Below are positions 2,744 to 38,536 of a stretch of 64,000 nt of DNA, piece by piece (within the stretch, counting starts at the first letter, position 1; each line of letters starts with the position of its first letter). Position numbers and translations under genes: made by a program. The DNA is from an uncultured Planctomycetota bacterium (GTDB lineage: Bacteria > Planctomycetota > Planctomycetia > Isosphaerales > Isosphaeraceae): contig CAWGMQ010000004.1 in NCBI GenBank assembly GCA_963823665.1, positions 2,976,001-3,040,000 on the forward strand. The letters run 5' to 3'. A model generated the notes under the pieces. The model did no database searches. It had not been told where the DNA came from and saw only the letters and a program-made list of their open reading frames with translations.

Positions 2744-3778
2744 TCAACGACCAACAACTCCCTGCGTCGGGCTCGACGCCGTCGCATACAGCTTGCGCGG
2801 AATGCGCCCGGCGCCGGCTGCCAGCCATCCCGATTCCACGGCCAGCCGCATTGCGTGCGCCATGCGCAGTGGGTCACTCGCTCCGGCGATCCCGGTGTTG
2901 AGCAGCACGCCGTCGCAGCCGAGCTCCATGGCGATCGTCACGTCGCTTGCGGTGCCGACTCCCGCATCGACGATCACCGGATAAGACGGATCGGCACCCT
3001 TCAAGTCCTCGAGGATGATGCGGATGTTGTTGGGGTTGAGGACACCCTGGCCGCTGCCGATCGGGCTGCCGGCCGGCATGACGCTCGCGGCCCCAGCCTC
3101 CTTGAGCCGGCGCGCCATCACCGGGTCGTCGCTCGTGTAGCACAGGACTTCAAACCCTTCCTTGACGAGGATCTGGGTGGCCTCGAGCGTGGCGAGCGGG
3201 TCGGGGAGCAGGGTGCGGGTATCGGCCAGGACTTCGAGCTTCACCCAGCTTGCCCCGGGATTGTTCAGCCCGAGCAGCAATTCGCGGCCAAGCCGGGCCG
3301 TCCGCAGCGCGTCCTCGGCGGAAAAGCACCCCGCCGTGTTGGGGAGGATCGTGTACCTGCGAGGATCGAGATAGTCGAGAAGGTTTCGGCCCTCCTTGTC
3401 GAAGAGCCGCTCGCGACGCACGGCCACCGTGACCACTTCCGCTCCGCTGGCGTCAAGGCAGTCACGCATCATCTCGAGCGACGAGTACTTGCCGGTCCCG
3501 ACGAACAGCCTGCTGCGGAACGAGTGCTTGCCGATCTTGAGGGGTTCGAATGGTTGGGGCACGGCCGCCCCGCCCCCGACCAGCGTGACCACCTCGAGGA
3601 TGTCGCCGTCGGCGACCGCCGTCTCGGCTTGCCGCGACCGCGTGACGAGGCCCTTGTTGAGCTCGACCGCAACGTGCTCGGCCCGAAGTCCCAAGTGCCG
3701 GACGAGCTCCGCCACGGAGAGCGGACCGGGCAGCTCCTTCGTTTCGCCGTTGAGCGTGATGCGTACCGAGGATTCCAC
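2744..3778 (-). CDS. thiG: ThiS-ThiG fusion (sulfur carrier plus thiazole synthase)
   Basis: N-terminal ThiS fold ending VTLVGGG, then [22 protein letters not shown] and DAGVGTASD. Confidence 0.95.
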
Positions 3779-4518: not shown

Positions 4519-7500
4519 TCAAGGCCGCGGCGGCACGCCGGTGATCGGCCCGGCCTTGGCGTCGTTGAAATCGGCGAGTGCGGTTGGGTCGGGTCGGGCG
4601 ATTCGCGTTCGGCGGGTGTCGGACTCCGCTCCAGGCTCGAGCAGGATGGTCAGGTCGTTGATGTCGTGGTCGAGCTGGCCTTCAAGGCAGATCAGGCGGT
4701 CGAGGGAGGGGTTCAGGCACCGGTTCTTTGCCGAAGCGTGATAGCCGGCACCGTCCTGGCTTCGCTCGACATCCAAGTAGACTCTCACGGCACTTGGAGG
4801 AAGGCCATTGAACTCGAACTTACCTGATGCGCCGAGCTTCGCGTGGAACCCGCCGCCCGCATTGGGATGGGACGCGAAGATGGTGCTTCCGGTAGGCACC
4901 TGTTTGCCGTCGGAGCAGATCACTCGGCCGGCGAGCGTGCGCCCTTCTTCGACGTGGCACTCGCCGATGTCGAACGTCGAGCCATCCTCGGCCGTTGCGA
5001 TGTGAATCGGAATGACGGCGCCTCCATCGGGCACGCTTGCGACCTTGGCATAAACCCAGAATTCGGCCGCTGCCGGGACGTGCGGGATGCGGAAAGAACC
5101 CTGCGAATCGGTTTTTGCTTCGAGGGGCGCAAGCAGAGTTGTATCCTGATCGCCATCGACGTACTTGAGTCCCATTTCAAGCCCCGCCACGGGCGGCTTC
5201 CCGTTCTTGAGCACTTTTCCTCTTACGAGAACGCCCGGGCCCAATGTGAGCGGTTCGCTGATCTTACCGTTCTGGTGGATGGAGATGAAGTCGCTAGTAG
5301 GATCGACCCCTTCGCCATCCTCGATGACCTCGAACTTGAATCGTCGCGAGGCGAACCCCTGCGCTCTGAGCACGAGGTCGAAGAGGTGTTGAGGCTCTTC
5401 CGCGCGGAAGGCGAACTCGCCGGCTTTTCCCGTCGAGACGACGGATTCTCCCTTGGTGTCCATACGATCCGCGACCGTGGCCGCGGCGATCGGCTTACCA
5501 TCGAGATCAACCACCCGGCCGCGGAGCATTTCAATTCCTTGCGTTGTGCTGAACGGAGAAGGTTCCGGCTTCGGTTTTGTAAACGGCGACCTCGGCAATC
5601 CCAACACATCCTCGACAGATCGCGCGATCAGATTGAACTCGAACTCGCGATCGAATTTCAGGTTGTCCATGGAAATCTCACCGAAGTCATACACAGTCTC
5701 ACCGGTATTCCCGATCGAGAATGTCGAGGCCCGATCGAGGGCCTCCACGGTTGCCGAGGCGACGTTGCCCGATTTGTCGATCACGAGCGTCGTCCCGATT
5801 CCATTCGTTTCGTAAGCCGTGATCGTTCGGCCCGAACCATCCTCGCTGGACCTGCGTGCGTTCGGGCCAGCGACGGTCGGTCCCGGCGGCCGGTCAAGAA
5901 GAAAATAGACCGGCGGTTCGCTCGTCAACTGTGTGCGAAGCGGGGCGACCGCGCGATTGAGCGTTTCGAGCGAGGTGATCGAGGCGTCGTGGAGGACAAG
6001 GATCGCAAGCGGTTTCCCAGCAAACTTCTTTTGAATCTGAGCGAGATGAGTCAGTGTCGGATTCTCAGACTCGTACTTGCTCGACCAGAAGCAGAGGATC
6101 AAGGCTTTGTCTCGAAAGTTGGCGAGTCTGACGGGCTTACCACCCAGGTCGAATGCGTCTATCTCCGTCGCCGGTTTGCCTAGCATCTTGAACCAAGCCG
6201 TCGACTCGAGTTGAAAGTCGGGGAGATCGAGTGGACCATTTCCGCGAGAAACGTTGATCTCCGCGACGCCTCGCATGGTGTCGGAATCGAATCGGATCTT
6301 GTACCGGCCCGGCAGTAACTCAGCTTCAAAAAGGCGGGGTGCGCCAGTAGATGCAGTCTCGTTTGTATCGGTCGAGTAACCCGTTTGCACATGTGCTGCT
6401 TTCTCGCCCATTCTGGCAATCTCACCCTCGTCGAGCCCGCCGGTGCTTGGATCGAGCGCGTACACGTTCCAGTGCAGATTCTGTTCGGGATGATCCTTGG
6501 GTGTCTCAATGACGCGAGCGCGGACCCGTCGAACCGGCTTGAGTGTGATTTCGAACGGCCTGTCCGGATCATCGTAGCGAATGACGGCGATTGCCCTTCG
6601 CGCGAAATCAGGAGACGCGAAGTGGATCACAATCGGGCCGTGTTCCGGAGACAGCGTGAGCGCACCCTCAAACTGGCCATTGGGCTCCGCCCGGAGCGCG
6701 GAACCCGCTTCTCTGTGAACCGCGAGCATCTGTAGGCGGTCGCTGCCAGAACGAATCTCAAAAACGTCTTTCATTTGCGCGATGGCGCTTGCTTCCTTAG
6801 ATAGAGGCAGATCGCGCCGCCAAGGAGTCGGGCCAGCTTGGAGGACAAACCGCCGGATGTCGGCCGGATGAATCGGTTGCCATTTTCCTCCCTCATCTTT
6901 CAATTCGAAGTACTTGCCGAGCGCCCCCGGCGAGACGACCTTTCCCTGCTCGTCGCGGAACGGCTCCTGGCGCTCGCGAATGCGGTCGCGTTCTGTGATG
7001 AGCTGCCAGCTTCCTGGCCACCCGCCGACGCCCCCGCCGATCCACGCCTTGGCCACCGGCTGGCCAAACTCGTCGCGAACGATTCCGCGAATTATTCGGA
7101 AACAAGTCTGGTGGCGGGGGAACCTTGTCCCGGGCAGCTTCCGGTGGTTCCTCAATCGCTGCGAGGGCGACTTCGGCCGGTACACGCGGTCCGTGCGCCC
7201 TGCTCGCTCGAATCGCCCACGAGGTTGCGCCGGAGACCAGAACACCGCCGAGCAAGATGATCGCCGCCGCGACCTTGAATCTCGTCAACGCGATTCCGCG
7301 CAGCACGTGTCTGGCCATCACCACCGAGGCTGCCCCGGCGATCGCAGGGCCGCTAGAGTGGGCAATCTGAATTGAGAGCCGCACCGTTGCTTCGGCCCAG
7401 GCCTGCGGGACAGGGGATGAGAGCTGGCCGAGCCCACCGGCTCCGGCGAAGGCCGATGCAAGGCCGACGCCGCGTTTTTCGAGCCGTGCTTTCAGCTTCT

Positions 7501-8074
7501 GCCGGCCGCGTGCGAGCCGGCTTTGAATCGTTCCAAGCGGGCAGCGCAGTTGAGCGGCCGCCTGCTCCTGACTGAGCCCATCGAGATAGCACAGGATAAG
7601 CGGCTCGCGGAAGGCTTGAGGCAGCGATCCCAGCTCGTCGTGGAGGGCTGCCCAATCTTCGCGGCTGTCCATCGCGGTGAGATCCGCTGCGACCGCATGC
7701 CCGGCTGCTCTCATTTCTCCCCCTCGGCGCTTGCGCTTGCGCCGGCGTGCCGCAGCGATTCGCACGTTGGCCGCGACCCGAAGTGCCACGCCGTGCAGCC
7801 AGCATCCCAGCGATTCGCGGCGGCTGATTGTTCCGGCCCGTTTTGCCAGGACGAGGAACGTCGCCTGGGCGGCGTCCTCGGCGTCTTGTTCATCGCCAAG
7901 AATCTGGCGGCAGATCCGCAAGACCATGGCTGCGTGCCGGTCGACGAGGGCTGCAAACGCGGCTTCGGCATCCTCGCCCCGGCGCTCGAGGAACTGTTCG
8001 AGCAACTGCCCGTCGGTCAAGCCGCCGGCGGTGCCGGTGTGGAAGAGGGTTTCGATTTGCTTGACGAATTCCAT
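4519..8074 (-). CDS. One-component ECF sigma factor A: sigma core, TM helix, carboxypeptidase-regulatory-like repeats and a TlpA-like fold (frameshift near 7098)
   Basis: Starts MEFVKQIETLF; DAEDAAQATF, FREPLILCYLDGLSQEQAA, GTIQSRLARGR; TM helix KVAAAIILLGGVLV; continues in ORF 4519..7245 with GIVRDEFGQPVAKA and GRVVDLDGKPIAAA repeats. Confidence 0.88.
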
Positions 8075-8127
8075 CGCTGGCCTGCAGGTTAGGCGCTTTG
8101 CACGTTTGGAACGGCCCAAACTTTCAG

Positions 8128-8158
8128 TGTAGTGTGCGCTGGCGTACCTGGCATTCCC
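8128..8158 (-). promoter_or_regulatory. Putative ECF autoregulatory promoter GGGAAT-N18-CACTACA (copy 1)
   Basis: Same motif and same spacing upstream of three ECF genes and one relic. Confidence 0.65.
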
Positions 8159-8244
8159 GAGTTGCTGGGATTTTCGTGCGCAGCGAGAATTCCGTTCGAT
8201 TTCGACGCAGCGCATCGGGGCCGCATCTCCCACGTCTGGCTGGC

Positions 8245-8273
8245 TTGAGCAGGGTTCGTGCACGGGTTAGAGT
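8245..8273 (+). promoter_or_regulatory. Sigma70-like promoter TTGAGC-N17-TAGAGT ending 6 nt before the rpn ATG (leaderless start)
   Basis: Conserved in the paralogous locus (TTGAGC-N18-TACGGT, 14154-14183); no Shine-Dalgarno sequence before ATG 8280. Confidence 0.6.
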
Positions 8274-8279
8274 GCCATC

Positions 8280-9252
8280 ATGGCGTCACAGCGCAAAGAG
8301 CCGGACGATCTCGATAGTCCTTGGAAGGAAGCGCTCGAGCACTTTCTCGAATCGTTCCTCGCGCTTTGTTTTCCGAAAGTTCACTCCGGCATTGACTGGT
8401 CCCGCGGGTACCAGAGCCTCGACAAGGAGTTCCAGCAGATCGTCCGCGACGCGCGTGTGAGGAAGCGGCTCGCTGACAAGCTTTTCAAGGTCTGGCGCAA
8501 CGGCGGCAGGGAGGCCTGGCTGCTGGTTCACGTCGAAGTTCAGGGACAGCGGGAGAAGGCCTTCCCGGAGCGAATGTACGTGTACAGTTACCGGATTTAC
8601 GACCGCTACCGCCACGAGGTCGCGAGCCTGGCTGTGCTGTGCGACGAGCATCCGACCTGGCGGCCTGACCACTTCGGGTACGATAATTGGGGTTCTAAGG
8701 TCGGGATTTGGTTTCCTGTCGTCAAACTGATCGATTTCCGTGGGGATGACGGGGCCCTGGAACAGTCGCCCAATCCATTTGCAGCAGTTATACTGGCGCA
8801 GCTCAAAGTCATCGAGACCCGGAAGGCGCCGGCGACGCGCTGGCAATGGAAACTCCGACTGATCAAGGGACTCTACGATCGCGGGCTGAAACGAGAGCAG
8901 GTGCGGCAACTTTTTCGCGTGCTCGATTGGATGATGGCCCTACCACCGGAGCTGGAGCAGTCGTTTCGAACCGAGTTTGCGCGTTTTGAGGAGGCACGAG
9001 GCATGCCATATGTGACAAGCATTGAAAGACTGGCGCGAGGAAGGACTTCAGGAAGGACTCCAGAAGGGCGTCGCCAAAGGCTTCCAGGCCGCCATCTTGG
9101 AGCTTCTGGAATTCAAGTTCAAGAAAGTGGCTGCGAAACACGTGCGAAAGGTACGCTCGGTGCGCGAGGTCAAACGGCTCCAAGCCGTACTACGAGCCGC
9201 GAGCGAAGCGAACACGCTCGAGGAAGCCCTCTCGCCGCTTCGCGATGATTAG
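8280..9252 (+). CDS. Rpn/YhgA-like PD-(D/E)XK nuclease, long form (frameshift near 9037)
   Basis: DSPWKEALEHF, ADKLFKV, HVEVQGQ, FPERMYVY.YRIYDRY, MPYVTSIERL; the C-terminus continues in ORF 9022..9252. Confidence 0.85.
9003..9252 (+). CDS. Predicted intragenic small protein (RpnS-like antitoxin) from an internal start
   Basis: GAGGAGG (8988-8994) lies 8 nt before the in-frame ATG 9003 (MPYVTS). Confidence 0.7.
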
Positions 9253-9274
9253 TGCGCCTGAGGAGGCACGGGGC

Positions 9275-9596
9275 ATGCCGTATGTGACGAGCGTCGAACG
9301 CCTGGCGAGGGAAGAAGGGTGCGCGGAAGCGCGCGGAAGCGTGGCAGGATGGATGGCGCGAGGGCTGGCGGAAAGGATGGCGCGAAGGATGGCTGAAAGG
9401 ATGCGAGGAGGGCTTTACCGAAGGCTTCCAGGTTGCGATCTTGGACCTCCTGGAGCACAAGTTCAAGAAAGTGGCCGCGAAAGACGCGCGTAAGGTTCGC
9501 TCAGTCCTCGAGGTCGAGCGGCTCGAGACTGTGCTACGCGCCGTGTACAAAGCGAACACCCTCAAGGAAGCCCTCTCGCCGTTTCGAGATGATTAA
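9275..9596 (+). CDS. Stand-alone RpnS-like cassette with expanded 4-aa repeats (frameshift near 9333)
   Basis: Own GAGGAGG (9260-9266) plus ATG; MPYVTSVERLAREEG...WQDGWREGWRKGWREGWLKG...FQVAILDLLEHKFKKVAAKDARKVRS...ALSPFRDD*. Confidence 0.8.
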
Positions 9597-9692
9597 GTCG
9601 CGGTCGACAAACTTCTCGAGTCGGAATGGAGTTGCCGAGGCGAGATGGTGGGGGAATGTGCCAGCGCGCATCGCCCCCCACGCGCTGCCCCC

Positions 9693-9833
9693 TCACGGCC
9701 GCGGCGGCACGCCTGTGATCGGGCCGGCCTTGGCGTCGTTGAAGTGGGCGATCACGGCCGGGTCGAGGTCATCCCGTTCGTCGCGGCTGGGTCTGGTCCG
9801 CCCGCCTGGCTCGAGAAGGACCGCGAGAATCTT
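9693..9833 (-). pseudogene. Orphan 3' tail of an ECF-A-type gene
   Basis: KILAVLLEPGG...DPAVIAHFNDAKAGPITGVPPRP* matches the C-terminus of the 4519 gene (TILLEPGA...DPTALADFNDAKAGPITGVPPRP*). Confidence 0.9.
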
Positions 9834-12800
9834 TCACTCGGTCTTGCGGGCGACGACGGGGAAAACCGTTGCGACTTTTCCAGGCGTTCCCTCGCTGGTC
9901 TTCAGGTCGTCGAAGGTGATCTCCAATCGGTAGCGACCGGGCCGTTCGATGGGAAAGAGGGTGCGAAGGTCGATTTGAAACGCGCTGACAGTCCCGGCCG
10001 GCGCCAGTGTGAAGGGCGAGGCCCCGCCGGGATGGCGGCGGAAGGGGCGGCCGGGGATCTCCTCGGGGGGGAATGGCTTCTCACGAGCGCCTCCCAACTG
10101 GGCAAACGGGTTGAGCTCGTCAGGATTGTCCGACACGCGGACGAGCTGGAAGGCGATCCCGTCTCGGATCGTGACCATGCCGTCGGCGGCTCGGACGAGG
10201 TCGGCCGGAGCCGTCGAGTCGACTCCGCGATGGTTCCGGAACGAGAGCTCGACCGGCAGCGGGCCGGCGGTGGCGGCATCCTTGATTTCGATCCGCGCGT
10301 CCAGGTCGGTCGAGAGCAACGACCAGCCCATGTTCCAGGGCGTGGGGAATTCGATCTCCTCGGCGGCGACTCGTGTCAGGGCATGGCGGCCTGCGAACCC
10401 ATAGTAGCGACGCCATCGGTCGCCCGCGCGCACCTCCTCGGCTTGCCAGACCCGGCCCTCTTGCATCGCCTCGATAGCCGGAAACGCATTGCCCTGGTCG
10501 TCGAACCGCTGGATGACGGGGGGATCGTCGGGGAAGACCTCCAGCTTCGTCCACCGGGCGTCGAGCGGGAGCGCCGGCAACGGGACGCGGCGGACTTCGG
10601 CCCCGGCGCGGTCGAGCGAGAAGATGGCTCGCCCCGCCGCGACTTCCTCGGCTGTCGCGGGATGGTCGAGCGGGTCGAATGCGAGGACCGCCTTTTCATG
10701 CCGCGGACCACCCGGCTCTGCCGCGAGGATTGCCCGCGACGCCGCATTTTCGTGGAACCGTTCGCCAAACTGCTTCAAGTACGCCATGCAGGCGCCGATG
10801 GCCTGGTCGCGCTTCGAGACGGGCCATTGCTTCTGGAACCGGGGAATGCCTTCGAGCGCCTGGAGGTCTTCGCAGACCAGGTCGGCCATCCGCAGGGGCA
10901 TCGCCCCAGGCCCGGGCTTGACGGGATTTTCGGGCCGGGACGAAAGCGTGCCTACGCTAATGACCGACTGGGAAGTGCTGTTGCCCTTCTCCACGGTCTT
11001 GCTGCTGCCCTGGATCACCGTAACCGTCCCCTCGTCGTCGACCTCGACGGTGCCCACTTGGGTCTTGTCGGCGAGGGCCCTGAGGACGAGCGTGCGGAAC
11101 GATTTCAAGCCGAGCAACGGACCGCTGAGCCTGATATGAGTCGCAAAGCTTTGGGAACTGACCGAGGGATTCCAGGGCGATTTCGGGTCTTCGAACAGCG
11201 CGGCAGCCGCGGCTATCACGGCTGGGTGGTCTGGGTTGCTCCACAAGGGCTCGAAGATCGCGATCTGGCGGGCGTCGTGCTGGGCGGGGGTGATGGTGCG
11301 GATCCAGCCGGCGTAGTCGTCCAGCGCCTGCGGGTCGCCTGCCTGGGTGCGGAGGCGAGTCAGGCTCTCTATTCTCTCCTCCAGGCCGAAAATCTTCGGC
11401 CCGTTCTCTCGCTGGGCCTGTAAGAGCCCGGCGCAGCGTTCGGCGCGGGCTTTCAGGACAGGCAAGGCTGCCTTGATGTCCCACTCCGCCAGCATCGAAG
11501 CCATCTGGTTGGCCGATCCGACCTTGAACTGATCGGCTGAATTGGGATCGATTGGGCCGCCTGGGTCAAACTCTTTTGCTCGCATCGCCATGAGCTCGGC
11601 GACGCTCGGGTCTCGCTTGGCACGAAGGGCCTCGCCGCGGAGCCTGGGCCGGGCGCCGGGAGGAAGCGGGGTTGTCACCGCCGTGCCGAACGCCGTACTG
11701 CCGGGGACGACCGAGACATTTTCATGCTGGACGATGTTGCCGGCGGCCTGGAGCCATTCGCGCGGCGCGGCGACGTCGTCGGCGAGGGTGCGATACCAGC
11801 GCTCGATGAGCGGGACGTCTCGGTTCTTCTCCCAGTAGGCGTGGATTTGATCGGCGACCGCTTTGCGACCTTGAAGGCCGCGCGACGAGAGGTTGTCGCC
11901 GGTGGAGACCGCGCCGAAGAACGAGGTTTTCAAGATGCCGGAAAGCGCCGTGTAGGCGGCCTCGTGGGCCCCCATAATGATGCGCGATCGGTGGAAGTCG
12001 CGGTGGAAATGGACCGAGCGGGTGAGGCGGACATCGGTTTCGAGGTCCTCGAGCAGCGGGTTGACCGCCTCGTCGCCCGCTTCGACGAGTGACTCGACGA
12101 CCGGAGAATCGCCCAAACTGACGGCGCCCGGCTGGCCGAACTGGCGCGCTGCGACCTGATCGAGATCGGCGATCAGAGCGGCGATCCGCTTCTTGGCATC
12201 GGCCCCCTGCGGCGGCACCGGCGGTTGCTTCGGTTCCCGGGCCCGGCGCTCCTGGTCGGCGAGGAGATCGGGGAGCTGGTCGAGGAATTGGATGTAAGGC
12301 GGGGAGCCCTCAGCGCCGTCGCCGGGCTTTCGGGGGTAGTCGAAGCCCATCGCCTTGGCCCGCGTCTCGACGTCTTTCTGGAGCGTGGTGAGCTTCCGCG
12401 CATCGGCAAGCGCCAGGGCATCGTCGCCGCGCATGTGGGCGCAGACGGCGCGATCGAAGAGGTACCAGGCCAGGTCGTTTGCCAGCGTCACATAGGAAAC
12501 ATTAAATTTGTTCTCGTCAAGCTTCGCCTTCGGGTTTGCCGCTCCGAACCGGGCGTCGCGCGGCCGGCTCCCTGCGGCCCAGACTGTCTCCGCGAGATCG
12601 GCCCGGCCCAGCCGGAAAAGCAAGCAGACCTTGATCGCGAGGAGGCTCGTCGGAGAGACCGCGTATGCTTCGTCGATTGCCCGGAAGGCGTTGAACCCGG
12701 AGTCGTCCATGTTGTCGCCGGCTGCGCGGGAGGCGCGGGCCATCTCGTCGATGATTTTCACGTCGGCGGCCGGGTCGGCCGGCTCGCCGACCGAGACGAG

Positions 12801-13977
12801 CGGATAGACCAGACCGCTCCAGGCGACAGCGAATCGCGTTTTCGCGCCGGCAGGTGCCGGCAAGACCCAGCCTCGCGTCTTGATCACACCTCCATCGCCG
12901 GTCCACACGTTGCCGATGCCGATCTCGATCGCGCGGTAATCGCAGCCGCGCGGATCTGCCAGCCCTTGTTCGAAGAGCGTGGCCGAGGTATTCGAAAGGA
13001 ACGCGGGCAACGAGGTCGCGGGGGGTTGCGAGGGTTCACGCTGCCGGGGAGGGTCAGGGATCGACGTTCCTTCGAAGCGAGGCGCCGGGCGATGGTCGGT
13101 GCGCTGGCGCAGCGCCATTGCAGTTGCTCCTAATAGAAATACTGCTGTGAGCACGGTCATCGCCGCGCCGACTTTCCATTTGGACAAGACGATGATGCGG
13201 CATACTCGAAGAGCCAGCGCAACGGAGGCCGTGCCCGCAATCTCGCGGGCTTTGAGGTGCGCGAACTCACCCGCCAGCCGCACGGTCGCCTCGGCCCATG
13301 CCTGCGGGGCGGGGCAGGACGGGAGGCCGTCGCTGTGGCTCGCAGCGGCGAAGGCGGATGAAAGAACCCTGCCGCTTTTTTCAAGTCGCGTTTTCAGCTT
13401 GGCCCGCCCGCGTGCGAGGCGGCTCTGGATGGTTCCGAGCGGACATTGTAATTGCATTGCAGCCTGCTCCTGAGTCAGCCCGTCGAGGTAGCAGAGGATG
13501 AGCGGGTCGCGGAAGGAGCGGGGCAGCGATCCCAGCTCATCGTGCAGTCGCACCCAATCATCTTGGTTTTCGATTGTGTCGAAATCTCCATGGACGACGT
13601 GGCCGGCGGCTCGCAGTTCGCCTTCTCGGTGCTCGAGCTTGCGCGCGGCGCGCGTGAGCCGCGCGCAGGTTGGCCGCGACGCGGCGTGCCACGCCATGCA
13701 GCCAGCAGGCGAGTGATTCGCGGCGGCTGATCGATGGCGCACGACGTGCGAGGACGAGGAACGCGGCCTGGGCGGCGTCTTCGGCGTCTTCTTCGGTGGG
13801 TAGGATCTGGCGGCAGACGCGTAAGACCATTGCGCCATGGCGGTCGACGAGGGCGGCGAATGCGTCTTGGGCGTCGTCGCCGCGGCACTCGAGGAACCGC
13901 TCGAGCAACAGGCGGTCGGTCAGGCCGCCGGCCGTGCCGGTGCGAAAGAGGGTCTCGATTCGCTTGACGAATTCCAT
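9834..13977 (-). CDS. One-component ECF sigma factor B: sigma core, TM helix and ~1100-aa extension of unrecognised type (frameshift near 13645)
   Basis: MEFVKRIETLF...DAEDAAQAAF in ORF 13558..14103; FRDPLILCYLDGLTQEQAA, TM helix and extension in ORF 9834..13838. Confidence 0.87.
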
Positions 13978-14036
13978 CGCGGGCCTCCGTTTCAGCGCAT
14001 CACGCGGCGTTTGCCGACTGGCCGCAGCCTCTATAG

Positions 14037-14067
14037 TGTAGTGTGCGCCCGCCGGACCGGCATTCCC
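14037..14067 (-). promoter_or_regulatory. Putative ECF promoter GGGAAT-N18-CACTACA (copy 2)
   Basis: About 60 nt upstream of ATG 13977. Confidence 0.65.
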
Positions 14068-14189: not shown

Positions 14190-14602
14190 ATGTCGTCCCG
14201 GCCTGAACAGTCCGACGATCTCGACAGTCCGTGGAAGGAAGCGCTCGAGCACTTTCTCGAATGGTTCCTCGCGCTTTGTTTTCCGGAGATCCACGCGGGC
14301 ATCGACTGGTCACGCGGGTACCAGAGCCTCGACAAGGAGTTCCAGCAGATCGTCCGCGACGCGCGCGTGCGGAAGCGGCTCGCCGACAAGCTTTTCAAGG
14401 TCTGGCGCAACGACGGCACCGAGACCTGGCTGCTGGTGCACGTCGAAGTTCAGGGGCAGCGGGAGAAGACTTTCCCGGAGCGAATGTACGTTTACAGTTA
14501 CCGGATTTACGACCGCTACCGCCGCCAGGTCGCGAGCCTGGCTGTGCTGTGCGACGAGCATCCGGCCTGGCGGCCCGACCACTTCGGGTACAATAATTGG
14601 GG
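14190..14602 (+). pseudogene. Rpn nuclease paralog with an internal ~296-nt deletion
   Basis: Near-identical to 8280-8692, then joins directly to the sequence equivalent to 8989 onward, out of frame. Confidence 0.88.
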
Positions 14603-14616
14603 AGGAGGCGCGAGGC

Positions 14617-14856
14617 ATGCCCTACGTGACGAGCATCGAGAGACTGGCGCGGGAAGAAGGTCGTCAGGAAGGAGTCGCCGAAGGCTTCCAGGCCGCGATC
14701 CTGGAGCTTCTCGAACTCAAGTTCAAGAAAGTGGCCGCGAAACACGCGCGAAAGGTCCGCTCCGTGCGCGAGGTCGAGCGGCTCCAGGCCGTGCTGCGGG
14801 CCGTCAACGAAGCGAACACGCTCGAGGAAGCCCTCTCGCCGCTTCGAGATGGTTAG
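14617..14856 (+). CDS. Intact RpnS-like small protein (79 aa)
   Basis: GGAGGAGG RBS then MPYVTSIERLAREEGRQEGVAEGFQAAILELLELKFKK...ALSPLRDG*, uninterrupted. Confidence 0.8.
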   Translation: MPYVTSIERLAREEGRQEGVAEGFQAAILELLELKFKKVAAKHARKVRSVREVERLQAVLRAVNEANTLEEALSPLRDG

Positions 14857-14858
14857 CC

Positions 14859-14950
14859 CATCGCGGGCCTTCGGTTGAGACGCATCGCACGGCGTTTACG
14901 AACTAACCGGACCCTATCGTGTCGTGTGCGCCGGCGTGCCCGGCATTCCC
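14859..14950 (-). promoter_or_regulatory. Orphan ECF promoter, 5' leader and start codon with the gene missing
   Basis: Aligns with 13975-14067; the -10-like box reads CACGACA instead of CACTACA; ATG 14861 is followed by GGC TAA. Confidence 0.75.
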
Positions 14951-19114: not shown

Positions 19115-22100
19115 TCAGCGGCGAGCGGGGAAGAGCTTGGGATTCTCGAGCGCCTTGCCCACGGCCCCTGGATCGTTTCCGCTCATGTCGTGGGCCACGA
19201 TTCGCCCGTCGGGACCGATGAGGAACGTCAGCGGGATTTGCCTCTTCTTTTGATCGGGACCAATGATGTACTGAGACTGGTAAATCACGCGGATGTCGTA
19301 ACGAGTGGCGGCGCCCGTGACGAAGTCGCCGGCGAAGCCGTGCGTCCAGTTCAGCCCGTCTTGCTTGATTGACTGCTCGGCCTGCGCGGCACTCTTGCCG
19401 CAGGCAAGGCTGATGAGCACAAAGCGGGGGTCGTGGCCGAAGTTCGCCTGGACCTCCTTGAGCACGGTCATGTCATTCTGTCGACCGGCTTCGGCTTGCC
19501 AGAAGTTGAGCAAGACGAGCTTTCCTCGATAGTCGCTCAGCTTCAAGCGCTGGCCTTTGTTGTCTGCGCCGATGCGCTCAACCTCGAAATCCGGCGCGAG
19601 GTCGCCGATCTTGATCCCTTGGCGCACTTTGGCAGTGATCGTCCCCAGGTCGAACGGTTCGTCCGACCGGTCACCGGCGAACGCCGGCACGACTACGGAT
19701 TGCTTCACAGTGTCGATCAGGCGCGGGTCTTCCCCGACCTCCAGCTCCAGCTCGTACTTGCCCGCGGGTACGTCGTCGATGCGAAATCGGCCGTCGTTCT
19801 TGATATGCGCCGCAAAGAGAGGCGACGTCCATACCAGGCGGCCGGAACGGTTGGTCTTCGATTGCTCGGTCGGCACACCGAGCAATACGGGTAGGTTGAG
19901 GGTCCAGTCGATCGGTGCTTCCGGCGTGCCGTCCAGAACGATCCGGCCGATCACGGGACGTCCTTTGCCGCCGAGGGTGACGTGAGCCGTCTCGCCTGGC
20001 TTGACCTCGATACGCTCCGGCCAACACTCAAGCTGCCGGAAGGGGTGTGAGGGACGGGGATCGTCTCGCACGACCCGGGAGACCGTGCCCGGGCCAGGGA
20101 CCACGCGGTCGAACTGGAAGCGGCCCCGCTCGTCGGTTTGCGTCCAGTAGCCAAAGCTGAAACTGTCCAAGCTGCTTTCGTGCTCAGGCCGGATCGGATG
20201 GAACATTACCTGTTGGTTGGGCCCGAACCGAGCGCCGATACGCACGCCGCCGTCGATCCGTCCCCAAGCTTGCAGCACGAGCTTGCCCGACCTGGCAAGC
20301 TCGTCGGATGTGGCGTCGGCGTAGCCTGTGTCGGTCAGGGCCACCACCACGAACTTTCCGGAGCGCGGTGGGAAAGAGAATCGGCCGTCGGGTCCGGTCG
20401 ATGCTTTGGGGAAATTCGCATTCGGATTGAACTTGCCAGACCGCAGAAACACCTGGGTCTGCCATGTGGAGAGTCCGACGTCGGCGCCGCTCGCGGGCTT
20501 CCCGTTGGGGAGAAAGACAATCCCCGTGATGCCCGAGGCTCGCCGTAGCGCGAAGTCAAGAACCTGCCGGCCTTCCTCGGGCTTGAAAGCCCGCGACACG
20601 GCCGTCGCGTAACCGGGGGCATCGATTCTCACGAAGTGCGCCTCGCGCGCGGAGTCGAACGAGCACGTAAATTTGCCGTCCGCGAACTCGTCACTGCGGT
20701 TCTCGTCCCAGTCGACGTCCCGTTCCCAGTCGCCGGACCGCCAGCCTTTGACGACCCGAACTTTCGGCACCGGTCGTCGTGTCTCGGCGTCGGTCACACG
20801 GCCGGTGATCACGAGCTCGGGGTAGAGAACGAAGGTCTGCTCGCGCTCCGATGCGACGAGCGGAACGTCGCGAGGTGACATCATGCCGTGCTTGCTGATT
20901 GTGTAGTGCACAACATCCTTGGGGGCGCTGTGCCATTCGAAACGGCCGTGCGCGTCTGTCGTGGTTTGAAACCGGATCGATCGATGCCCGCGCCACGAGT
21001 CCGCATAGACCATGGCGCCGGCGACCGGGTTGCCCTTCGCGTCGACGACGCGGCACCGAAGCAACGCGCCGGGTTCCAGGAGCTGGAATTGCACCGGTGC
21101 GGTTCGCGCGTCGACGCGGACGTCCTGAATCCGCGGTGCAAAGCCCTCGGCTTGGACCGTGATGACTGATGGACCGGCATCACCGTTCTCAAGGGTAAAT
21201 CGCCCCTGCTCGTCGGTTGTTGCGGATGGGCGGTTCGACCCCCAGATATCGCCGAGAACCGCCGTGGCTCTCGGCACCGGAGAGCCTGCGGCGTCGACGA
21301 CGCGACCCGAGACGGATAGACCCTTGTTCATGATCGTGACACTGTCGAGATTCCGCGACGCGACGACGTCGCTCTTGCGAAAATGCGGATGGGTCGCCTG
21401 GACCCACAATCCCGCCAAGTCCTTGGGCGCGACGTCGAATCGCCAGCGGCCTTGCGCGTCGGCTCTAGCGGAACCCAAGCTGAACCAATAATCTTGCCCT
21501 CCACGATTGATTCCGAGCGCGCCGACTTTCACCGCGGCGTCTGCGAGGGGATGGCCGGCTTCATCGCGCAGAATGCCACCGATGATTGTGCCCGGCTCGA
21601 AACGCAGTTGCTCCGTCACCGGCAATGCCACCGGCCCGCGCTCGTGCTCCCAAAGGATGTCGATCGGCACGCGATCGGGTGCGCGGGCAGTAATCCAGAG
21701 TCGCCGGACGATCGCGCCGGCGGGCCATTCGATCGCAGCGGTCCCATCTTCTCCCGTGAAGATCGTCGCCTGCCGGCGCTCTTCGCCGAAGACGCATACA
21801 TATTCAATCAACACGGCTTCGATCGGCTTACCGGTCGAGGCATCGATGGCCTTGAGCGTCAGCTTCGCTGCCGGCTGCTCGTTCTCGGGATGGAGGTTGG
21901 TCGGGACAGCGGGCGGTGCATTGGATTTGCGTTCGTGAATAGCCCATGCGGCGGTGGCGACACAGGCGCCACACATCAAAACCGCGGCTGCCACTTTCGT
22001 CTTGGCCAGGACGATGGTGCGCAAGACCTCTTCAGCCAGCACGAGGGACGCCGTGCCTGCTCCAGCGATTGCGGGACCTTTGGCCTGCACAAACTGCATC

Positions 22101-22802
22101 GCCAGCCGCACCGTCGCCTGGGACCAGACCTGCGGCGGAGGGCAGCTCTCTAGAGCGCTCTGACCCGCGGCTACAAAGATTCCCGAAAAGCTAAGTCCCC
22201 GTTTTTCGAAACGGGCCTTCAGCTTCGCGCGGCCGCGTGATAGCCGACTCTGAATTGTTCCGAGCGGGCAGCGCAATTGCGCCGCGGCCTGCTCCTGGGT
22301 CAATCCGTCGAGGTAGCAGAGGATGAGCGGCTCGCGGAAGGATTTCGGAAGCTGATCGAGCTCTTGGTGGAGGGCAGCCCAATCGTCTTCGTTTTCGATG
22401 GCTTTGAAATCTCCCTGGACGACATGGCCTGTGGTTCGCATTTCTCCCCCTCGGCTGCTCGCGGGTGCGCCGGCGAGTCGCGGCGATCCGCGCCTTGGCG
22501 CCAACCCGAATCGCAACGCCATGCAGCCAGCAGCCGAGCGACTCGCGCCGGCTGATTGAAGCGGCCCGCCGCGCCAGCACGAGGAACGTCGCCTGGGCGG
22601 CGTCTTCGGCGTCTTGTTCATCGCGAAGAATCTGGCGGCAGACCCGTAAGACCATTGCCCCATGGCGGTCGACCAGGGCCGCGAAAGCCGCCTCGGCATG
22701 CTCGTCGCGGCGTTCGAGGAAGCGCTCGAGCAACTGGGCGTCGGAGAGGCCGCCGGCTGTGCCGGTGCGAAAGAGTGTCTCGATCTGCTTGAGGAATCGC
22801 AT
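19115..22802 (-). CDS. One-component ECF sigma factor C: sigma core, TM helix, carboxypeptidase-regulatory-like repeats and C-terminal TlpA-like fold (frameshift near 22455)
   Basis: MRFLKQIETLF...DAEDAAQATF; FREPLILCYLDGLTQEQAA; GRVVDAAGSPVPRA repeats; IGDLAPDF...LSDYRGKLVLLNFW. Confidence 0.88.
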
Positions 22803-22860
22803 CGGCGGCCTGACCGGAACGCGTTCGCGGCAGTGTCAACGACTGGAATGCAGCGTCCAG

Positions 22861-30057: not shown

Positions 30058-32690
30058 TCATCGAACGAACGGGTCGGGCGGGAAGCCGTGGTCGAGCCGA
30101 TCTGCGCCTGGTGCACTTTCGCGAGATTGAGCAAATGGAACTTGAGAGCCTGCTGGTAGAACGGCTGGCGCGGCATCGCGGCCAGTGCGGCCCGCTGATG
30201 TTTGATCGCTCGCTCGAGCTTCTCTCGCGCCTCCGGTAATCGTCCCTGGCCGATCTCGATCTCGGCGATGCGCTCGAGCGTGAAGCCGAGATAACTCTGA
30301 AAGGAGTGAACCGACGGGTTGTCGTGCGCCAGTCGTTCCCAGATCTCGACCGCCCTTCGGTACGATTCAAGCGCCGGAGCCACCGGCTTCGTGTCTTTGA
30401 GCAAGTCGCCGATGTTGGTAAGGCATGCGGCCAGCTCGCTCAGGCACAGCGTGGCCGAGGGATAGTCGCGCGCCAGCCGTTCCCGAATCACAAGCGTTCG
30501 CCGATACGACTCGAGTGCCTCGGCCGGATGGTTCGTCTCGGCCAGAAGTTTACCGATGTTGTAGCGGCTGACGGCCAGGTCGTGGTGAAACGCGTCGATC
30601 GTCGGGTTGTCGTGCGCCAGTCGCTCGAAGATCTCGAGCGCCTGGCGATGCGATTGGAGCGCCTCGGCGGGCCGGCCGGTGTCGGCGAGCAGTGCTCCGA
30701 TGTTGTTGTGACTCCAGGCCAGATAGCTCTGGTACTCGTTGACATCGGCCGTGGAGGTCGACGAGCCTTCTAAAGGTCGCGAGCGCCCCGCGGTACGACT
30801 CGAGTGCCTGAGCCGGCTGGCCCATTTCGTACTGCAGCTTACCAATGTTGTTGTGCACCGTGGCCAAGTCGCGCTGGTACTCGGTGACGGCGGGATTGTC
30901 GCGAGCGATACGCTCGAGGATCTCGAGTGCCCGGCGGAATGACTCGACTGCCTGCGCCCGCTGGCCTGTGTTGGTCAGCATGTTCCCCAGGACGTTGTGA
31001 CTTCCGGCCAAGTCGCTTTGATAACTGGCGACGGCGGGATTCTCGCGGGCCAGTTGTTCTCGGACGGCGAGCGCCTCGGAGTGCGACTGGATCGCGTCGG
31101 GGAGGCTGCCGAACTGGCTCGTGGTCTCGGCCAGGTCGAAGCTCGCGCCGGCGAGCCTGGTCAGCGCGTCGGGACGGGTCGCACTGTCGGCCCGGAGCTC
31201 TTCGCACAGTTTGCGGAAGAACTCGATCGGCTCTTTCAAGAGGGCCTGGCGCAGCCCACCCAGCTCCGCTTGGTTCTTGAGCACCGCGTTGGCCTGGACC
31301 ACGTCGCGGAACTTCTTCACCGCGGCGATTGCCAGATCCTCACGCGCTTCCGCCCGCCGCCGCTGCTTGTCCAGTTCCTGATTCTTGTGGACGAGAGCCA
31401 CGTTCGTGGTGTCGAGCTCGCGGTTCTTACTTGCCAGGACCGTTGCGAAGCCCGCGAGCGCGGCCAGGCCGAAGACCAGCACGGCCGCCGCGCTTGTGAC
31501 CAGCGTCCGATGCCGCCGCCTCCACCGCCCTACGCGAAGCCCGATCGGTTCGTGCCAGGCCGTCACCGGCTCGTCGGCCAGCCAGCGCTTCACATCCGCG
31601 GCCAGCTCGAGCGCCGTCGCATAACGGTCCGCCGGCCGCGCGGCCATCGCCTTCAGGCAGATCGCCGCCAGGCGCGCGGTGCCGCCGGCCCGATCCGCCC
31701 AGGCGCGGGGAACTCGCAGTGCCTCACCTGCTCGAGGATCTCGCCGTGGGCGCCGCCCCTGTAGGGAGCTTCGCCAGTCAGGATCGCATAGAGGATCGCT
31801 CCCAGGCTGAAAAGGTCGCTCGCCGGGCCCACCTCCGCCGGTTGCTCCCGGGCCTGTTCGGGACTCATGTACTGAAGCGTTCCCACCACCCCCAACGTGG
31901 GCGTGCCCGAGCCCGAGCTCGGTGTGAGAGCCTCTTCCCCGGCGCCGTCTGAGGCCTTATCTCGCTCGAAAGGCTTGGCCAGACCCCAGTCGACGACCAG
32001 GGTTTCGTCATACTGGCCCAGCATGATGTTCTGGGGCTTGAGGTCGCGATGGAGAATTCCCCGGCTGTGAGCGTACGCCACGGTGTTGCACACCGACACG
32101 AACCGGTTCAGCAAGTCGCGCAGCGCCAGCGAGCGCTCGGCCGGGTCGCGGCCGGGGCGCTCGGCGGCGTGGAAGGTATTGAGGGCGTCCTGGAGCGTCG
32201 TGCCGCGGATGAACCGCATGGCGTAGCATGGCGCGCCCGAGTCGTCGGTTCCCCGGGTGTAGATCGGCACGACGCCGGGATGCTCCAGCCGGCCCGTGAC
32301 CTCGGCTTCGAGGAGGAATCGACGCTGGCTGAGCGCGTCGCCCGAGCGGCCGGGCTTCAAGAACTTCAAGGCCACTTCGCGGTTGAGCCCGGCCTCGCGG
32401 GCCAGGAACACCTCACCCAAGCCCCCGGCGGCGTGGAAGCGGAGGTCGCTATACTCAGCCCGCGCGGCGGCCGCCTCCCGGCCGCCGGCCTTGACCGGCG
32501 CGTCGGTCAAGAACGCGTTGAAGGCGCAGAGCCGCGCGATGCGGCGGGCGAGCTCGCCGGCCAGCTCCGGGCAGGTGGAGCAGAGCTCTTCCGGAGAGCG
32601 ACTTTCGCCCTGCTCCTGGAGCTCCTCCCACCGCTCTAATAGCTCGTCCAGTCGCGCCTCGGTTTGGTCGGCGTGCAAAGGGGAAATCAT
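30058..32690 (-). CDS. Hanks-type Ser/Thr kinase with TM helix and TPR repeats (frameshifts near 31670, 30760 and 30100)
   Basis: AGGLGEV, VALK, HRDLKPQN, DWGLAK, GTLQYMSPEQ; TPR repeats; terminal LDHGFPPDPFVR* read in a shifted frame. Confidence 0.88.
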
Positions 32691-36835: not shown

Positions 36836-37097
36836 CGCCAACCGGTGCGATCGTTGATGCCAGCGCTCGCCGCCGCGGTCATCGCGCGGCGACAGTCTGG
36901 CGGCCTGGCGATTTCACACGTCTAACGGTGCGCAACCCGGCCGGCAGCCTCATTCAGTTTTCCCCCGCCGTCTTTGCCACGCCCCAGGCGATTTCACTCG
37001 ACAACGAATCGGTCGTAGAGTACCTTTTTGCGGTGTTCGACCGTTGTTTTACATCGCCCATAGGCGCCGCGGCGATTTCGCAAGAGGGTGACCCGTC

Positions 37098-38345
37098 ATG
37101 ACCGAGCATCGTCACAGCGACCCGGACCGGGCCTGTTCGATCAACCGTCGCGGCTTTCTGGGCGCGACTGCCGGAGTGGCGGCCGCGACGTCGCTGGGCG
37201 CGGGGGCGAAGCCGCAGGCGCAGACCGCTCCCGCGGAAAAGCAATCCGCGGTTCTTCCCAAGCGCAAGCTGGGACGCACGGGTGTCGATGTATCGATCCT
37301 CAATCTGGGAACGTGGCGGAGTGTTGGGCTGGATCGGATCCTCCGTTTTGCGTGGGCTAACGGCGTCCGCTACGTCGACACGGCCCAGAGCTACGGTTCC
37401 GAGCCCGCGATCGGGCGCTGGCTACAAACCATGCCGGAGGTCCGCAACGATCTGTTCCTCGTTACCAAGGACCATCCCAACACGCCGCGCGAGCTGATCA
37501 AGAAGCTCGATCAGCGGCTCGCAGCGCTGCAAACCGACTACGTCGATTTGATCTTTATTCACGCGCTGTGTGACGAACACACCGAAACGCAGATCCAGTG
37601 GCCCGTCAGCAAGGAGTTCATGGAAACAGCCGAGGCGATTCGCAAGTCTGGGAAGGCAAAGTTTGTCGGGTTCTCGACGCACCACATTCGGCGGCCGGAG
37701 ATTCTCGAGGCGGCTGCTCGAGGTGGGTTTGTCGACGCGATCATGCTGCAGAACAATCCCTGGATCGTCGAGGAACGACCATACCGGAACATCAACCGCG
37801 CACTCGACGCCTGCCACAAAGCCGGTATCGGTCTCATCTCGATGAAACAGCTCGCCGGGAATTACAACCTCGATTACGTCAGTCGAAAGCTTCCCGAGCT
37901 GGAGCAGAAGGGGCTGAAGCCCTATCAAGGATTGCTGCACGCCATCTGGACCGACGAGCGTTTTTCATCGTGCTGCGTATCGATGCGGAATACGGACCAG
38001 GTTCGCGAGAATGCGGAAGCGGCGCGGAAATTCAAGCCGTTGACGGCGGCCGAGATGACGCGGATGCGCGATGTGTTTCTCGCGGCCGGCCCAATGCTCT
38101 GCGCCGGATGCGACGGGCGGTGCAGCCACGCGGGAGGCACCACGGCCGAGCTGGGTAACCTCACGCGGTTCCTGACCTATCACGAGCATCACGGCTACCG
38201 CGGCGAAGCACGGCGGCTCTACTCCGAGATGACGGAAGCTGCCCGCGACTGGTCGGGCGCCGATCTGGAAGCCGCGCGGCAAGCTTGTCCGAGCAAGCTC
38301 GACTTCGCCAGCCTTCTCCCCAAGGCCGACCGGCTGCTGGGGTGA
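37098..38345 (+). CDS. Tat-signal aldo/keto reductase with C-terminal Cys cluster
   Basis: NRRGFLG; RKLGRTG, DTAQSY, LVTK, FIH; CAGCDGRC...CP. Confidence 0.88.
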   Translation: MTEHRHSDPDRACSINRRGFLGATAGVAAATSLGAGAKPQAQTAPAEKQSAVLPKRKLGRTGVDVSILNLGTWRSVGLDRILRFAWANGVRYVDTAQSYGSEPAIGRWLQTMPEVRNDLFLVTKDHPNTPRELIKKLDQRLAALQTDYVDLIFIHALCDEHTETQIQWPVSKEFMETAEAIRKSGKAKFVGFSTHHIRRPEILEAAARGGFVDAIMLQNNPWIVEERPYRNINRALDACHKAGIGLISMKQLAGNYNLDYVSRKLPELEQKGLKPYQGLLHAIWTDERFSSCCVSMRNTDQVRENAEAARKFKPLTAAEMTRMRDVFLAAGPMLCAGCDGRCSHAGGTTAELGNLTRFLTYHEHHGYRGEARRLYSEMTEAARDWSGADLEAARQACPSKLDFASLLPKADRLLG

Positions 38346-38389
38346 TCGAAGACCGACCACACCCCGTTAGCGCCCGGCGTCTCTAACCT

Positions 38390-38428
38390 GGCCGGCCCCG
38401 GCGAAGCCGTGGCGGGCCGGCCTTTCTG
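38390..38428 (+). terminator. Possible intrinsic terminator
   Basis: GGCCGGCCC...GGGCCGGCC stem followed by TTTCT. Confidence 0.5.
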
Positions 38429-38536
38429 GGCGACTGTCGACACTCCGAAGAATCTCGGGTAGGTTATTTGTTACCTGTTTCATTCTTACGCCAGTGCGCA
38501 GAGAGACGCCGCGATTCCGCGAGAGGAGAATCCGTC

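What the first reader, a model, noticed from the sequence alone, without database searches (positions are those of the whole stretch)
9259..9596. Stand-alone, diverged RpnS-like cassette appended behind the rpn gene
Seen: 7 nt after the rpn stop, a second copy of only the C-terminal part begins exactly at (T)GAGGAGG-N8-ATG. It is diverged (AILDLLEHKFKKVAAKDARKVRSVLEVERL vs AILELLEFKFKKVAAKHVRKVRSVREVKRL). The duplication boundary coincides with the predicted translation signal, which is natural evidence that this piece is a gene of its own. Inference: it is an orphan antitoxin giving immunity to a related Rpn toxin, or a silent donor for C-terminal exchange.
Basis: partly seen in the sequence, partly recalled or inferred. 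Interest (0 to 1): 0.78.

Follow-up and report, generated by a model that had tools for sequence, protein, structure and literature searches.

The report
Spare antitoxin copy behind Rpn nuclease
A soil bacterium carries, right behind a gene for a self-toxic DNA-cutting enzyme, a second copy of just the small antitoxin part of that gene, an arrangement already known from E. coli; here the copy has diverged and reads as broken in the assembly, so it may be a decaying spare.

Summary
The cassette is real: GAGGAGG at 9260, ATG 9275, stop 9596, core 81% identical to the 3' end of the upstream Rpn-like PD-(D/E)XK gene. It matches the rpnS' arrangement of Zhong et al. 2023 (E. coli ypaA, rpnCS'), so it is not a new kind of element. 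The genome holds 7 small cassettes but one complete nuclease domain; 3 of 4 loci have a tandem second cassette. In relatives, 10 of 11 partial duplicates start 12-97 nt before the internal ATG and none inside the small gene, but only 3 of 7 downstream copies are intact, against 122 of 129 intragenic ones. The orphan has 10 four-residue repeats against 4 upstream, so it probably cannot neutralise its neighbour. Whether its 2-nt frameshift is real is unresolved: the assembly has indel errors (rpoB), yet 6 of 7 cassettes break in the same short region. One other locus carries a non-cognate second cassette, a hint of C-terminal exchange. No earlier scan note on this. Interest 0.3.

The parts
8280..9252 (+). 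Rpn-like gene (RpnL): PD-(D/E)XK-type N-terminal domain, helical middle part, C-terminal RpnS-like part; 2 nt short at about 9033-9037 in the assembly
   Evidence: Pfam PF04754 23.8 bits, cut-off 21; TIGR01784 13 bits, cut-off 52.1; intact relative folds with N-terminal match to NucS 2vld Z 7.6, rmsd 3.3, 104 aligned; frame break
8988..9005 (+). Internal ribosome-binding site GAGGAGG and ATG (9003) of the intragenic small protein
   Evidence: start codon at this aligned position in 146 of 148 homologous loci, SD-like word in 148 of 148
9003..9252 (+). Intragenic RpnS-like frame, 4 four-residue repeats, broken by the 2-nt deficit in the assembly
9253..9258 (+). Spacer TGCGCC between the stop and the second RBS; may itself be part of the duplicated piece
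9259..9277 (+). RBS (T)GAGGAGG, 8-nt spacer and ATG of the downstream cassette
9275..9596 (+). Downstream rpnS'-type cassette (the finding); 322 nt as assembled, 2 nt short of an open frame; weak DUF4351 similarity
   Evidence: PF14261 16.1 bits, E 0.012, below cut-off 25
9311..9428 (+). Expanded 12-nt repeat tract (10 four-residue units, 6 more than upstream; four units carry Trp); the frame break lies in it, most simply at the GC run 9329-9335
   Evidence: Trp at this repeat position 1 time in 126 homologous small proteins
14190..14856 (+). Paralogous rpn-like gene with a ~296-nt internal deletion; 3' breakpoint at the same GAGGAGG (14602)
14617..14856 (+). Intact 79-aa RpnS-like frame with 3 repeats; the only unbroken one of 7 in the assembly
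   Evidence: model long helix 6-36 plus short helices; predicted homodimer 0.75 vs best control 0.00

Best explanation
The piece is an rpnS'-type gene: a partial 3' copy of a local Rpn-like toxin-antitoxin gene that took along the internal ribosome site and so can be translated without the nuclease part. Shown: anatomy, homology, conserved internal start in the family, recurrence and non-random 5' ends of such copies. Inferred from the E. coli work: the long protein is a DNA nuclease toxin and the small protein is its antitoxin, binding through a long first helix whose four-residue repeat number sets specificity. Most likely history: a partial duplication or recombination event gave an extra antitoxin that was harmless or useful at birth (it buffers the toxin), after which it gained six repeats and diverged. 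It probably no longer matches the upstream toxin, and is either a spare for another repeat class or is decaying, as about half of such copies do. The 2-nt breaks in both the main gene and the copy are more likely assembly errors than not (about 60%), but this is not shown.
For: Published precedent: downstream rpnES' (ypaA) is translated, and rpnCS' is gained, lost or fused between strains. Internal start conserved in 146 of 148 relatives. ATG-to-core distances are 6 mod 12 in all 7 unbroken cassettes and 1-2 nt short of that in all 7 broken ones (14 examined). The intact paralogue is predicted to form a homodimer through residues 7-35, score 0.75 vs best control 0.00, runs agree in at least 98% of contacts, pLDDT 84; the mark was reached by 20 of 30 true pairs and 1 of 23 single chains, and the pass may reflect likeness to solved structures. 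12 of 111 loci with enough flank have a partial 3' duplicate; counted as 11 events, 10 start at -12 to -97 and none inside the small gene. Genome G000: 7 small cassettes, 1 complete nuclease domain. Orphan vs main dN/dS 0.25 over 65 codons, Fisher p 1e-4. The orphan falls in the local clade with main, paralogue and the G001 orthologue, support 95/94. The assembly has indels in rpoB and in the neighbouring ECF sigma genes.
Against: As assembled the cassette is not an open frame, and no reads cover the break. Orphan-private changes are 5 synonymous and 11 non-synonymous, not different from neutral (p 0.55), and its branch is long, 0.16 vs 0.035-0.083. Only 3 of 7 downstream copies in other assemblies are intact vs 122 of 129 intragenic copies (p 7e-4). 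The orthologous G001 locus lacks the cassette. The gene is below the NCBIfam Rpn cut-off, so the toxin-antitoxin function is carried over from a distant family. The SD-like word could partly be a by-product of Glu-Glu codons. Nine neighbouring ORFs scanned show no defence families. Six of 7 cassettes breaking in the same region exceeds the measured background indel rate (P 4e-5 at the highest rate), and the motif CTGGCGCGCGA survives 78 times in G000, so a blanket sequencing error at that motif does not explain it.
Confidence: 0.6

Rival explanations
1. Orphan immunity or exchange cassette: C-terminal cassettes are swapped by recombination in the conserved RBS-MPYVTS segment, and displaced ones are kept as antitoxins against other repeat classes or as donors.
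For: At G000 contig C8 the two tandem cassettes share an identical 5' 43 nt but their cores are 68% identical and cannot be one clade (p-AU 5e-5). The window orphan is no closer to its neighbour (81%) than to the paralogue 5 kb away (85%). Fusion of the N-terminal domain with rpnS' was seen in E. coli. One repeat of difference abolishes neutralisation in E. coli, so a 10-repeat copy would need another target.
Against: For the window pair and two other tandem pairs a common origin is not rejected (p-AU 0.24, 0.41, 0.16). No long gene with a matching 10-repeat C-terminus was found in G000 (genome 92% complete). Arrays longer than two cassettes were not seen, apart from a third piece cut by a contig end in L070. 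The C8 second cassette has an in-frame TGA.
Confidence: 0.2
2. Neutral recombination scar: the copy arose by microhomology-driven duplication, was never selected, and is a pseudogene; its start at the RBS reflects the repair mechanism.
For: In G000 C8/C10 and G001 C4/C18 the junction reads CTT-TGA-GGAGG (TAA in C8): the stop codon overlaps the RBS, and an unduplicated G001 copy ends in CTTTGAGG, matching the internal TTTTGAGG. Neutral-looking private changes; 4 of 7 downstream copies broken; absent from the G001 orthologue.
Against: Copies in unrelated taxa with different junction sequences also all keep the RBS (-12 to -97; P about 7e-4 with the genus collapsed to one event, under an arbitrary uniform null). 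The window junction is not of the TTTGA type. RBS, start, stop position and 12-nt register are all kept after about 10% private divergence.
Confidence: 0.15
3. The frameshifts are real and recurrent: the short GC dinucleotide run at codons 10-13 of the small gene is a slippage or cleavage hot spot that switches the C-terminal domain on and off.
For: 6 of 7 G000 cassettes, 2 of 7 G001 cassettes and L150 lose 1-2 nt in or beside that run; the one intact G000 copy has a different codon there. This is above background.
Against: All these cases come from few-contig assemblies with many 1-2 nt indels (34 in 30.2 kb between G000 and G001). A similar ECF gene break also sits in a GC run. Of 129 loci outside that assembly series, 1 has a frameshift near this position and it is not in a GC run. 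G040 and two G001 copies keep the run intact. A break there would remove the antitoxin while leaving the nuclease core.
Confidence: 0.05

Closest known systems
Rpn toxin-antitoxin systems with downstream rpnS' (E. coli rpnE-ypaA, rpnC-rpnCS'; Zhong et al. 2023, doi 10.1101/2023.05.02.539157 / PMC10400941)
   Same: PD-(D/E)XK-type gene with internal RBS and start; four-residue repeats shortly after the small protein's Met; a second copy of only the small part directly downstream; gain and loss between relatives.
   Different: Distant subfamily (below TIGR01784 cut-off, no sequence or fold hit to RpnA_S in my searches), small protein 70-110 aa; the copy differs by six repeats and is frameshifted as assembled; at one locus the downstream copy does not group with its upstream partner, unlike the E. 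coli cases; no expression or function shown.
DUF4351 (PF14261) stand-alone small proteins
   Same: 15 of 71 full-length family members carry DUF4351 at E <= 0.01; the paper names DUF4351 for separate rpnS genes.
   Different: The orphan scores 16.1 bits, below the cut-off of 25.
Orphan C-terminal modules of Rhs/CDI polymorphic toxins (recalled, not checked in a call)
   Same: A displaced C-terminal cassette with a short conserved 5' homology block behind a full gene.
   Different: Here the cassette is the presumed antitoxin/oligomerisation part, not a toxin tip with an immunity gene; usually one copy, not a long array; no secretion.

Membership tests
Rpn (COG5464-type) toxin-antitoxin | N-terminal PD-(D/E)XK nuclease domain | tested here: met
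   PF04754 above cut-off; D61 invariant, H79 invariant, E81 and Q83 at least 90% in 71 members; model matches NucS Z 7.6, rmsd 3.3, 104 aligned, and McrBC Z 6.2, both middling
Rpn (COG5464-type) toxin-antitoxin | NCBIfam TIGR01784 Rpn model above curated cut-off | tested here: not met
   13 bits for the window's N-terminal 253 aa and 18.2 for an intact G001 paralogue, cut-off 52.1
Rpn (COG5464-type) toxin-antitoxin | Internal RBS and start codon giving a C-terminal small protein | tested here: met
   Sequence level only: start codon in 146 of 148, SD-like word in 148 of 148 mapped loci (158 fetched)
Rpn (COG5464-type) toxin-antitoxin | Variable four-residue repeats 8-20 residues after the small protein's Met | tested here: met
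   Begin at residue 13; lengths differ by multiples of 12 nt in 14 cassettes once 1-2 nt deficits are allowed
Rpn (COG5464-type) toxin-antitoxin | Small protein is a helical bundle that dimerises through its long first helix | tested here: met
   Prediction only, on the intact paralogue 14617-14853: helix 6-36; homodimer 0.75 vs control 0.00, interface 7-35
Rpn (COG5464-type) toxin-antitoxin | Structural likeness to RpnA_S (PDB 7TH0) | tested here: inconclusive
   Fold searches of the small-protein model gave only generic helical matches
Rpn (COG5464-type) toxin-antitoxin | Long protein toxic, small protein neutralises it, phage defence | not testable with these tools
   Needs expression and phage assays
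Rpn (COG5464-type) toxin-antitoxin | Tendency to lie near defence genes | tested here: inconclusive
   9 neighbouring ORFs scanned with Pfam: ECF sigma factors, LRR protein, ThiS/ThiG, helicase, 1 without a hit; PADLOC not run
rpnS' (downstream stand-alone copy) | Copy of only the small-protein part with its own RBS directly behind the rpn gene | tested here: met
rpnS' (downstream stand-alone copy) | Open reading frame | tested here: inconclusive
   2 nt short as assembled; reads do not cover the place; assembly has indel errors
rpnS' (downstream stand-alone copy) | Groups with its own upstream small protein | tested here: inconclusive
   Not rejected, not shown for the window pair (p-AU 0.238); rejected for the C8 pair (p-AU 5e-5)
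rpnS' (downstream stand-alone copy) | Protein is made | not testable with these tools
   Needs ribosome profiling or tagging

The most novel reading that the evidence does not exclude
In this planctomycete lineage Rpn-like genes run a cassette-exchange system: the conserved RBS-MPYVTS block is a recombination anchor at which new C-terminal specificity domains are fused to the nuclease, and displaced domains stay behind as translated, non-cognate antitoxins that protect against other repeat classes of the toxin. Four junctions in one genome at -13 to -18, a 7:1 excess of small cassettes over complete nucleases, and the non-cognate pair on contig C8 are compatible with it.
Probability: 0.2. Interest if true: 0.6.

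Novelty: new member of a known kind. Interest (0 to 1): 0.3.

Why it matters
Modest. It extends the gene-within-gene Rpn design and its detached antitoxin copies to a distant, mostly unannotated subfamily ('hypothetical', 'cytosolic protein', 'DUF4351') in planctomycetes and cyanobacteria, and gives first counts of where such copies start and how often they decay. The origin and use of rpnS' genes is left open in the 2023 paper; if non-cognate cassettes are real immunity or donor modules, they would show how toxin specificity is renewed and give natural variant pairs for cross-neutralisation tests.

Tried and rejected
Reads: no RNA holder listed; four DNA runs laid as contigs gave no cover at 9168-9438, and the one piece reaching 9037 had 17 other letters in 127, so the frameshifts could not be checked. 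Whole-cassette assembly artefact rejected: the copy is 19% diverged and tandem copies occur in other assemblies. Blanket error at CTGGCGCGCGA rejected: 78 sites remain in G000 (comparison pattern). Sequence searches of the PDB found nothing significant; Foldseek gave no match at E <= 0.001 for either model; 7TH0 was not among the rows listed, which does not show different folds. No sigma-70-like promoter by consensus in 8000-9900 (uninformative for this organism). FliH and Yae1_N hits are repeat-composition matches. The two extra hits in L195 belong to another small-protein subfamily and are not 5'-truncated duplicates. Earlier scan notes: none by sequence; 8 by words, none about Rpn. Literature searches listed no paper on rpnS' beyond Zhong et al. 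and the Koonin commentary; most subscription papers are not in that library.

Full report
Observation. The window shows, after TAG 9250-9252 and the spacer TGCGCC, the sequence TGAGGAGG, eight bases and ATG 9275, ending in TAA 9594-9596. The stretch repeats the 3' end of the upstream gene in two blocks, 84% over 57 nt and 78% over 228 nt, separated by a longer repeat tract. Two things were missed. The upstream gene is itself out of frame from about 9035, so its natural stop is not in frame with ATG 8280. And a paralogue at 14190-14856 has lost about 296 nt, with the 3' breakpoint again at GAGGAGG, leaving an intact 79-aa small frame at 14617-14856.

The upstream gene. Its first 253 codons pass the Pfam cut-off for Transposase_31/YhgA (23.8 vs 21) but not NCBIfam's Rpn model (13 vs 52.1). 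Relatives occur in planctomycetes, cyanobacteria and purple sulfur bacteria and are annotated hypothetical, cytosolic or DUF4351 proteins. A model of an intact relative (pLDDT 86.7) has an N-terminal alpha/beta domain resembling NucS (Z 7.6, rmsd 3.3, 104 aligned; middling). Of 158 loci fetched, 148 could be mapped at the internal position; 146 have a start codon there and all 148 an SD-like word. The small part carries four-residue repeats from residue 13. The intact paralogue is predicted as a long helix plus short helices and as a homodimer through residues 7-35 (0.75 vs best control 0.00; mark reached by 20 of 30 true pairs and 1 of 23 single chains; may pass by likeness to solved structures). 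So the gene has the anatomy of an Rpn toxin with an intragenic antitoxin; it is a distant member or sister of the family, and its function is inferred.

Known precedent. I read the whole main text of Zhong et al. (bioRxiv 10.1101/2023.05.02.539157) and the whole Koonin commentary (PMC10400984), and searched the two held supplement files of PMC10400941 for five terms (no planctomycete or DUF4351 hit; Dataset S1 seems not to be held and may bear on novelty). The paper reports second copies of the small gene behind rpnE (ypaA, shown to be translated) and rpnC, says they group with their own upstream gene, can be lost or fused to the N-terminal domain, and that one added repeat abolishes neutralisation. 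The finding is that arrangement.

The genome. G000 has 16.46 Mb in 12 contigs, 92% complete. It holds four loci of this subfamily. The start motif occurs 7 times (control 1): four in intragenic position, three as tandem second cassettes (window, C8, C10). Only the window gene has a complete nuclease domain; C8 and C10 lack roughly the first 100 residues and the paralogue lacks the middle. In the same-genus genome G001, 2 of 5 loci have a second cassette, one of them truncated; its orthologue of the window gene has none. At C8, C10 and the two G001 loci the stop codon overlaps the second RBS (CTT-TGA-GGAGG; TAA at C8), and an unduplicated G001 copy ends CTTTGAGG, so a short microhomology with the internal TTTTGAGG can explain those junctions (my inference). 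The window junction is of another type and may start at -16 or a few bases earlier.

Boundaries in relatives. Of 111 distinct loci with at least 400 nt downstream, 17 had a self-match. I left out 2 whole-gene duplicates, 2 matches of 22-36 nt and 1 match to the 5' part of a further gene copy. The 12 partial 3' duplicates were counted as 11 events (one orthologous pair merged). Starts relative to the internal ATG: -299, -97, -78, -51, -43, -24, -16, -13, -13, -13, -12; the -13 values are cut by the stop codon and extend to about -18. None starts inside the small gene; under a uniform null with bounds I chose, P is 3e-5, or 7e-4 with the genus collapsed to one event. Other Rpn-like subfamilies in the same bacterial family show the same pattern in 8 of 10 loci inspected, starts read by eye at about -16 to -110 and one near -230; these were picked from hits and are not in the count. 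So copies keep the RBS, but do not as a rule begin exactly on it. Against lasting function: outside one indel-prone assembly series, 3 of 7 downstream copies are intact vs 122 of 129 intragenic ones (p 7e-4).

Selection and origin. Over the 162-nt core the orphan is 81% identical to its neighbour, 85% to the paralogue and 80% to the G001 orthologue. Pairwise dN/dS with the neighbour is 0.25 over 65 codons (p 1e-4), but changes private to the orphan are 5 synonymous and 11 non-synonymous, as expected from neutrality (p 0.55), with a long branch. The four sequences form one clade (95/94) that is unresolved inside; grouping the orphan with its neighbour is not rejected (p-AU 0.24). At C8 the tandem pair shares an identical 5' 43 nt yet cannot be one clade (p-AU 5e-5), while two other pairs can (0.41, 0.16) (the pairs were named by position, after a first tree had been seen). 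The orphan has 10 repeats against 4 and 3, with Trp in four units, a residue seen once at that position in 126 relatives. By the E. coli rule it should not neutralise its neighbour.

Frameshifts. All 7 unbroken cassettes have an ATG-to-core distance of 6 mod 12; the 7 broken ones, including the orphan and the main gene, are 1-2 nt short (14 examined), so the lesions are small and late. The assembly has indels: rpoB is split by one, 1 frameshift in about 12.5 kb of conserved housekeeping genes, 34 isolated non-triplet indels in 30.2 kb against G001 including intergenic ones, and breaks in the neighbouring ECF sigma factor paralogues. But 6 of 7 cassettes breaking in the same region is above these rates (P 4e-5 or smaller), and the GC motif is not generally lost. 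A context-specific consensus error is my preferred reading (about 60%); reads did not cover the sites.

Verdict. A real rpnS'-type cassette, a new member of a published kind in a distant Rpn-like subfamily. It works like a detached antitoxin if it is expressed; whether it is alive is open. The most interesting side results are the RBS-keeping boundaries, the high decay rate of such copies, and the non-cognate pair on C8. Interest 0.3; cassette-exchange reading probability 0.2, interest 0.6 if true.

Noticed in passing
window 14190-14856: Second rpn-like paralogue with a ~296-nt internal deletion ending at the internal RBS; nuclease part cut off out of frame, small frame 14617-14856 intact.
   Followed up: yes
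window 9033-9037: The main rpn-like gene is 2 nt short at a GC run; 6 of 7 small cassettes in G000 break in this region.
   Followed up: partly
L024:3931-4480 (G000 contig C8): Tandem cassettes with identical 5' 43 nt but cores from different clades; second has an in-frame TGA; nuclease N-terminus missing and a short internal duplication upstream.
   Followed up: partly
L025:3300-3775 (G000 contig C10): Tandem cassettes with a 243-nt period, stop codon overlapping the second RBS; core dN/dS 1.5 on few changes.
   Followed up: partly
window 4519-8076, 9834-13980, 19115-22810 (- strand): Three paralogous long ECF sigma factor genes with large C-terminal extensions; the rpn-like genes sit head to head with two of them, so the ECF-rpn unit was duplicated; all three read as frameshifted in the assembly.
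   Followed up: partly
window 14858-14950 vs 13974-14067: The DNA after the paralogue repeats the region upstream of the ECF gene (78% over 95 nt).
   Followed up: no
L047 (G000 contig C3, rpoB): rpoB is split by a one-base insertion, a sign of assembly indel errors.
   Followed up: yes
L236, L241, L242, L243, L247, L248, L252, L255: Other Rpn-like subfamilies in the same bacterial family also carry tandem C-terminal cassettes, several intact, one with the start codon changed.
   Followed up: partly
L195:1050-1340 and 2950-3230: Two stand-alone small cassettes of a different Rpn-like subfamily flank the gene, one preceded by a short repeated sequence.
   Followed up: no
window 30298-31050 and 37068-39775: A 144-nt-period tandem repeat region and a 1.3-kb duplicated gene pair seen in the self-comparison.
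   Followed up: no
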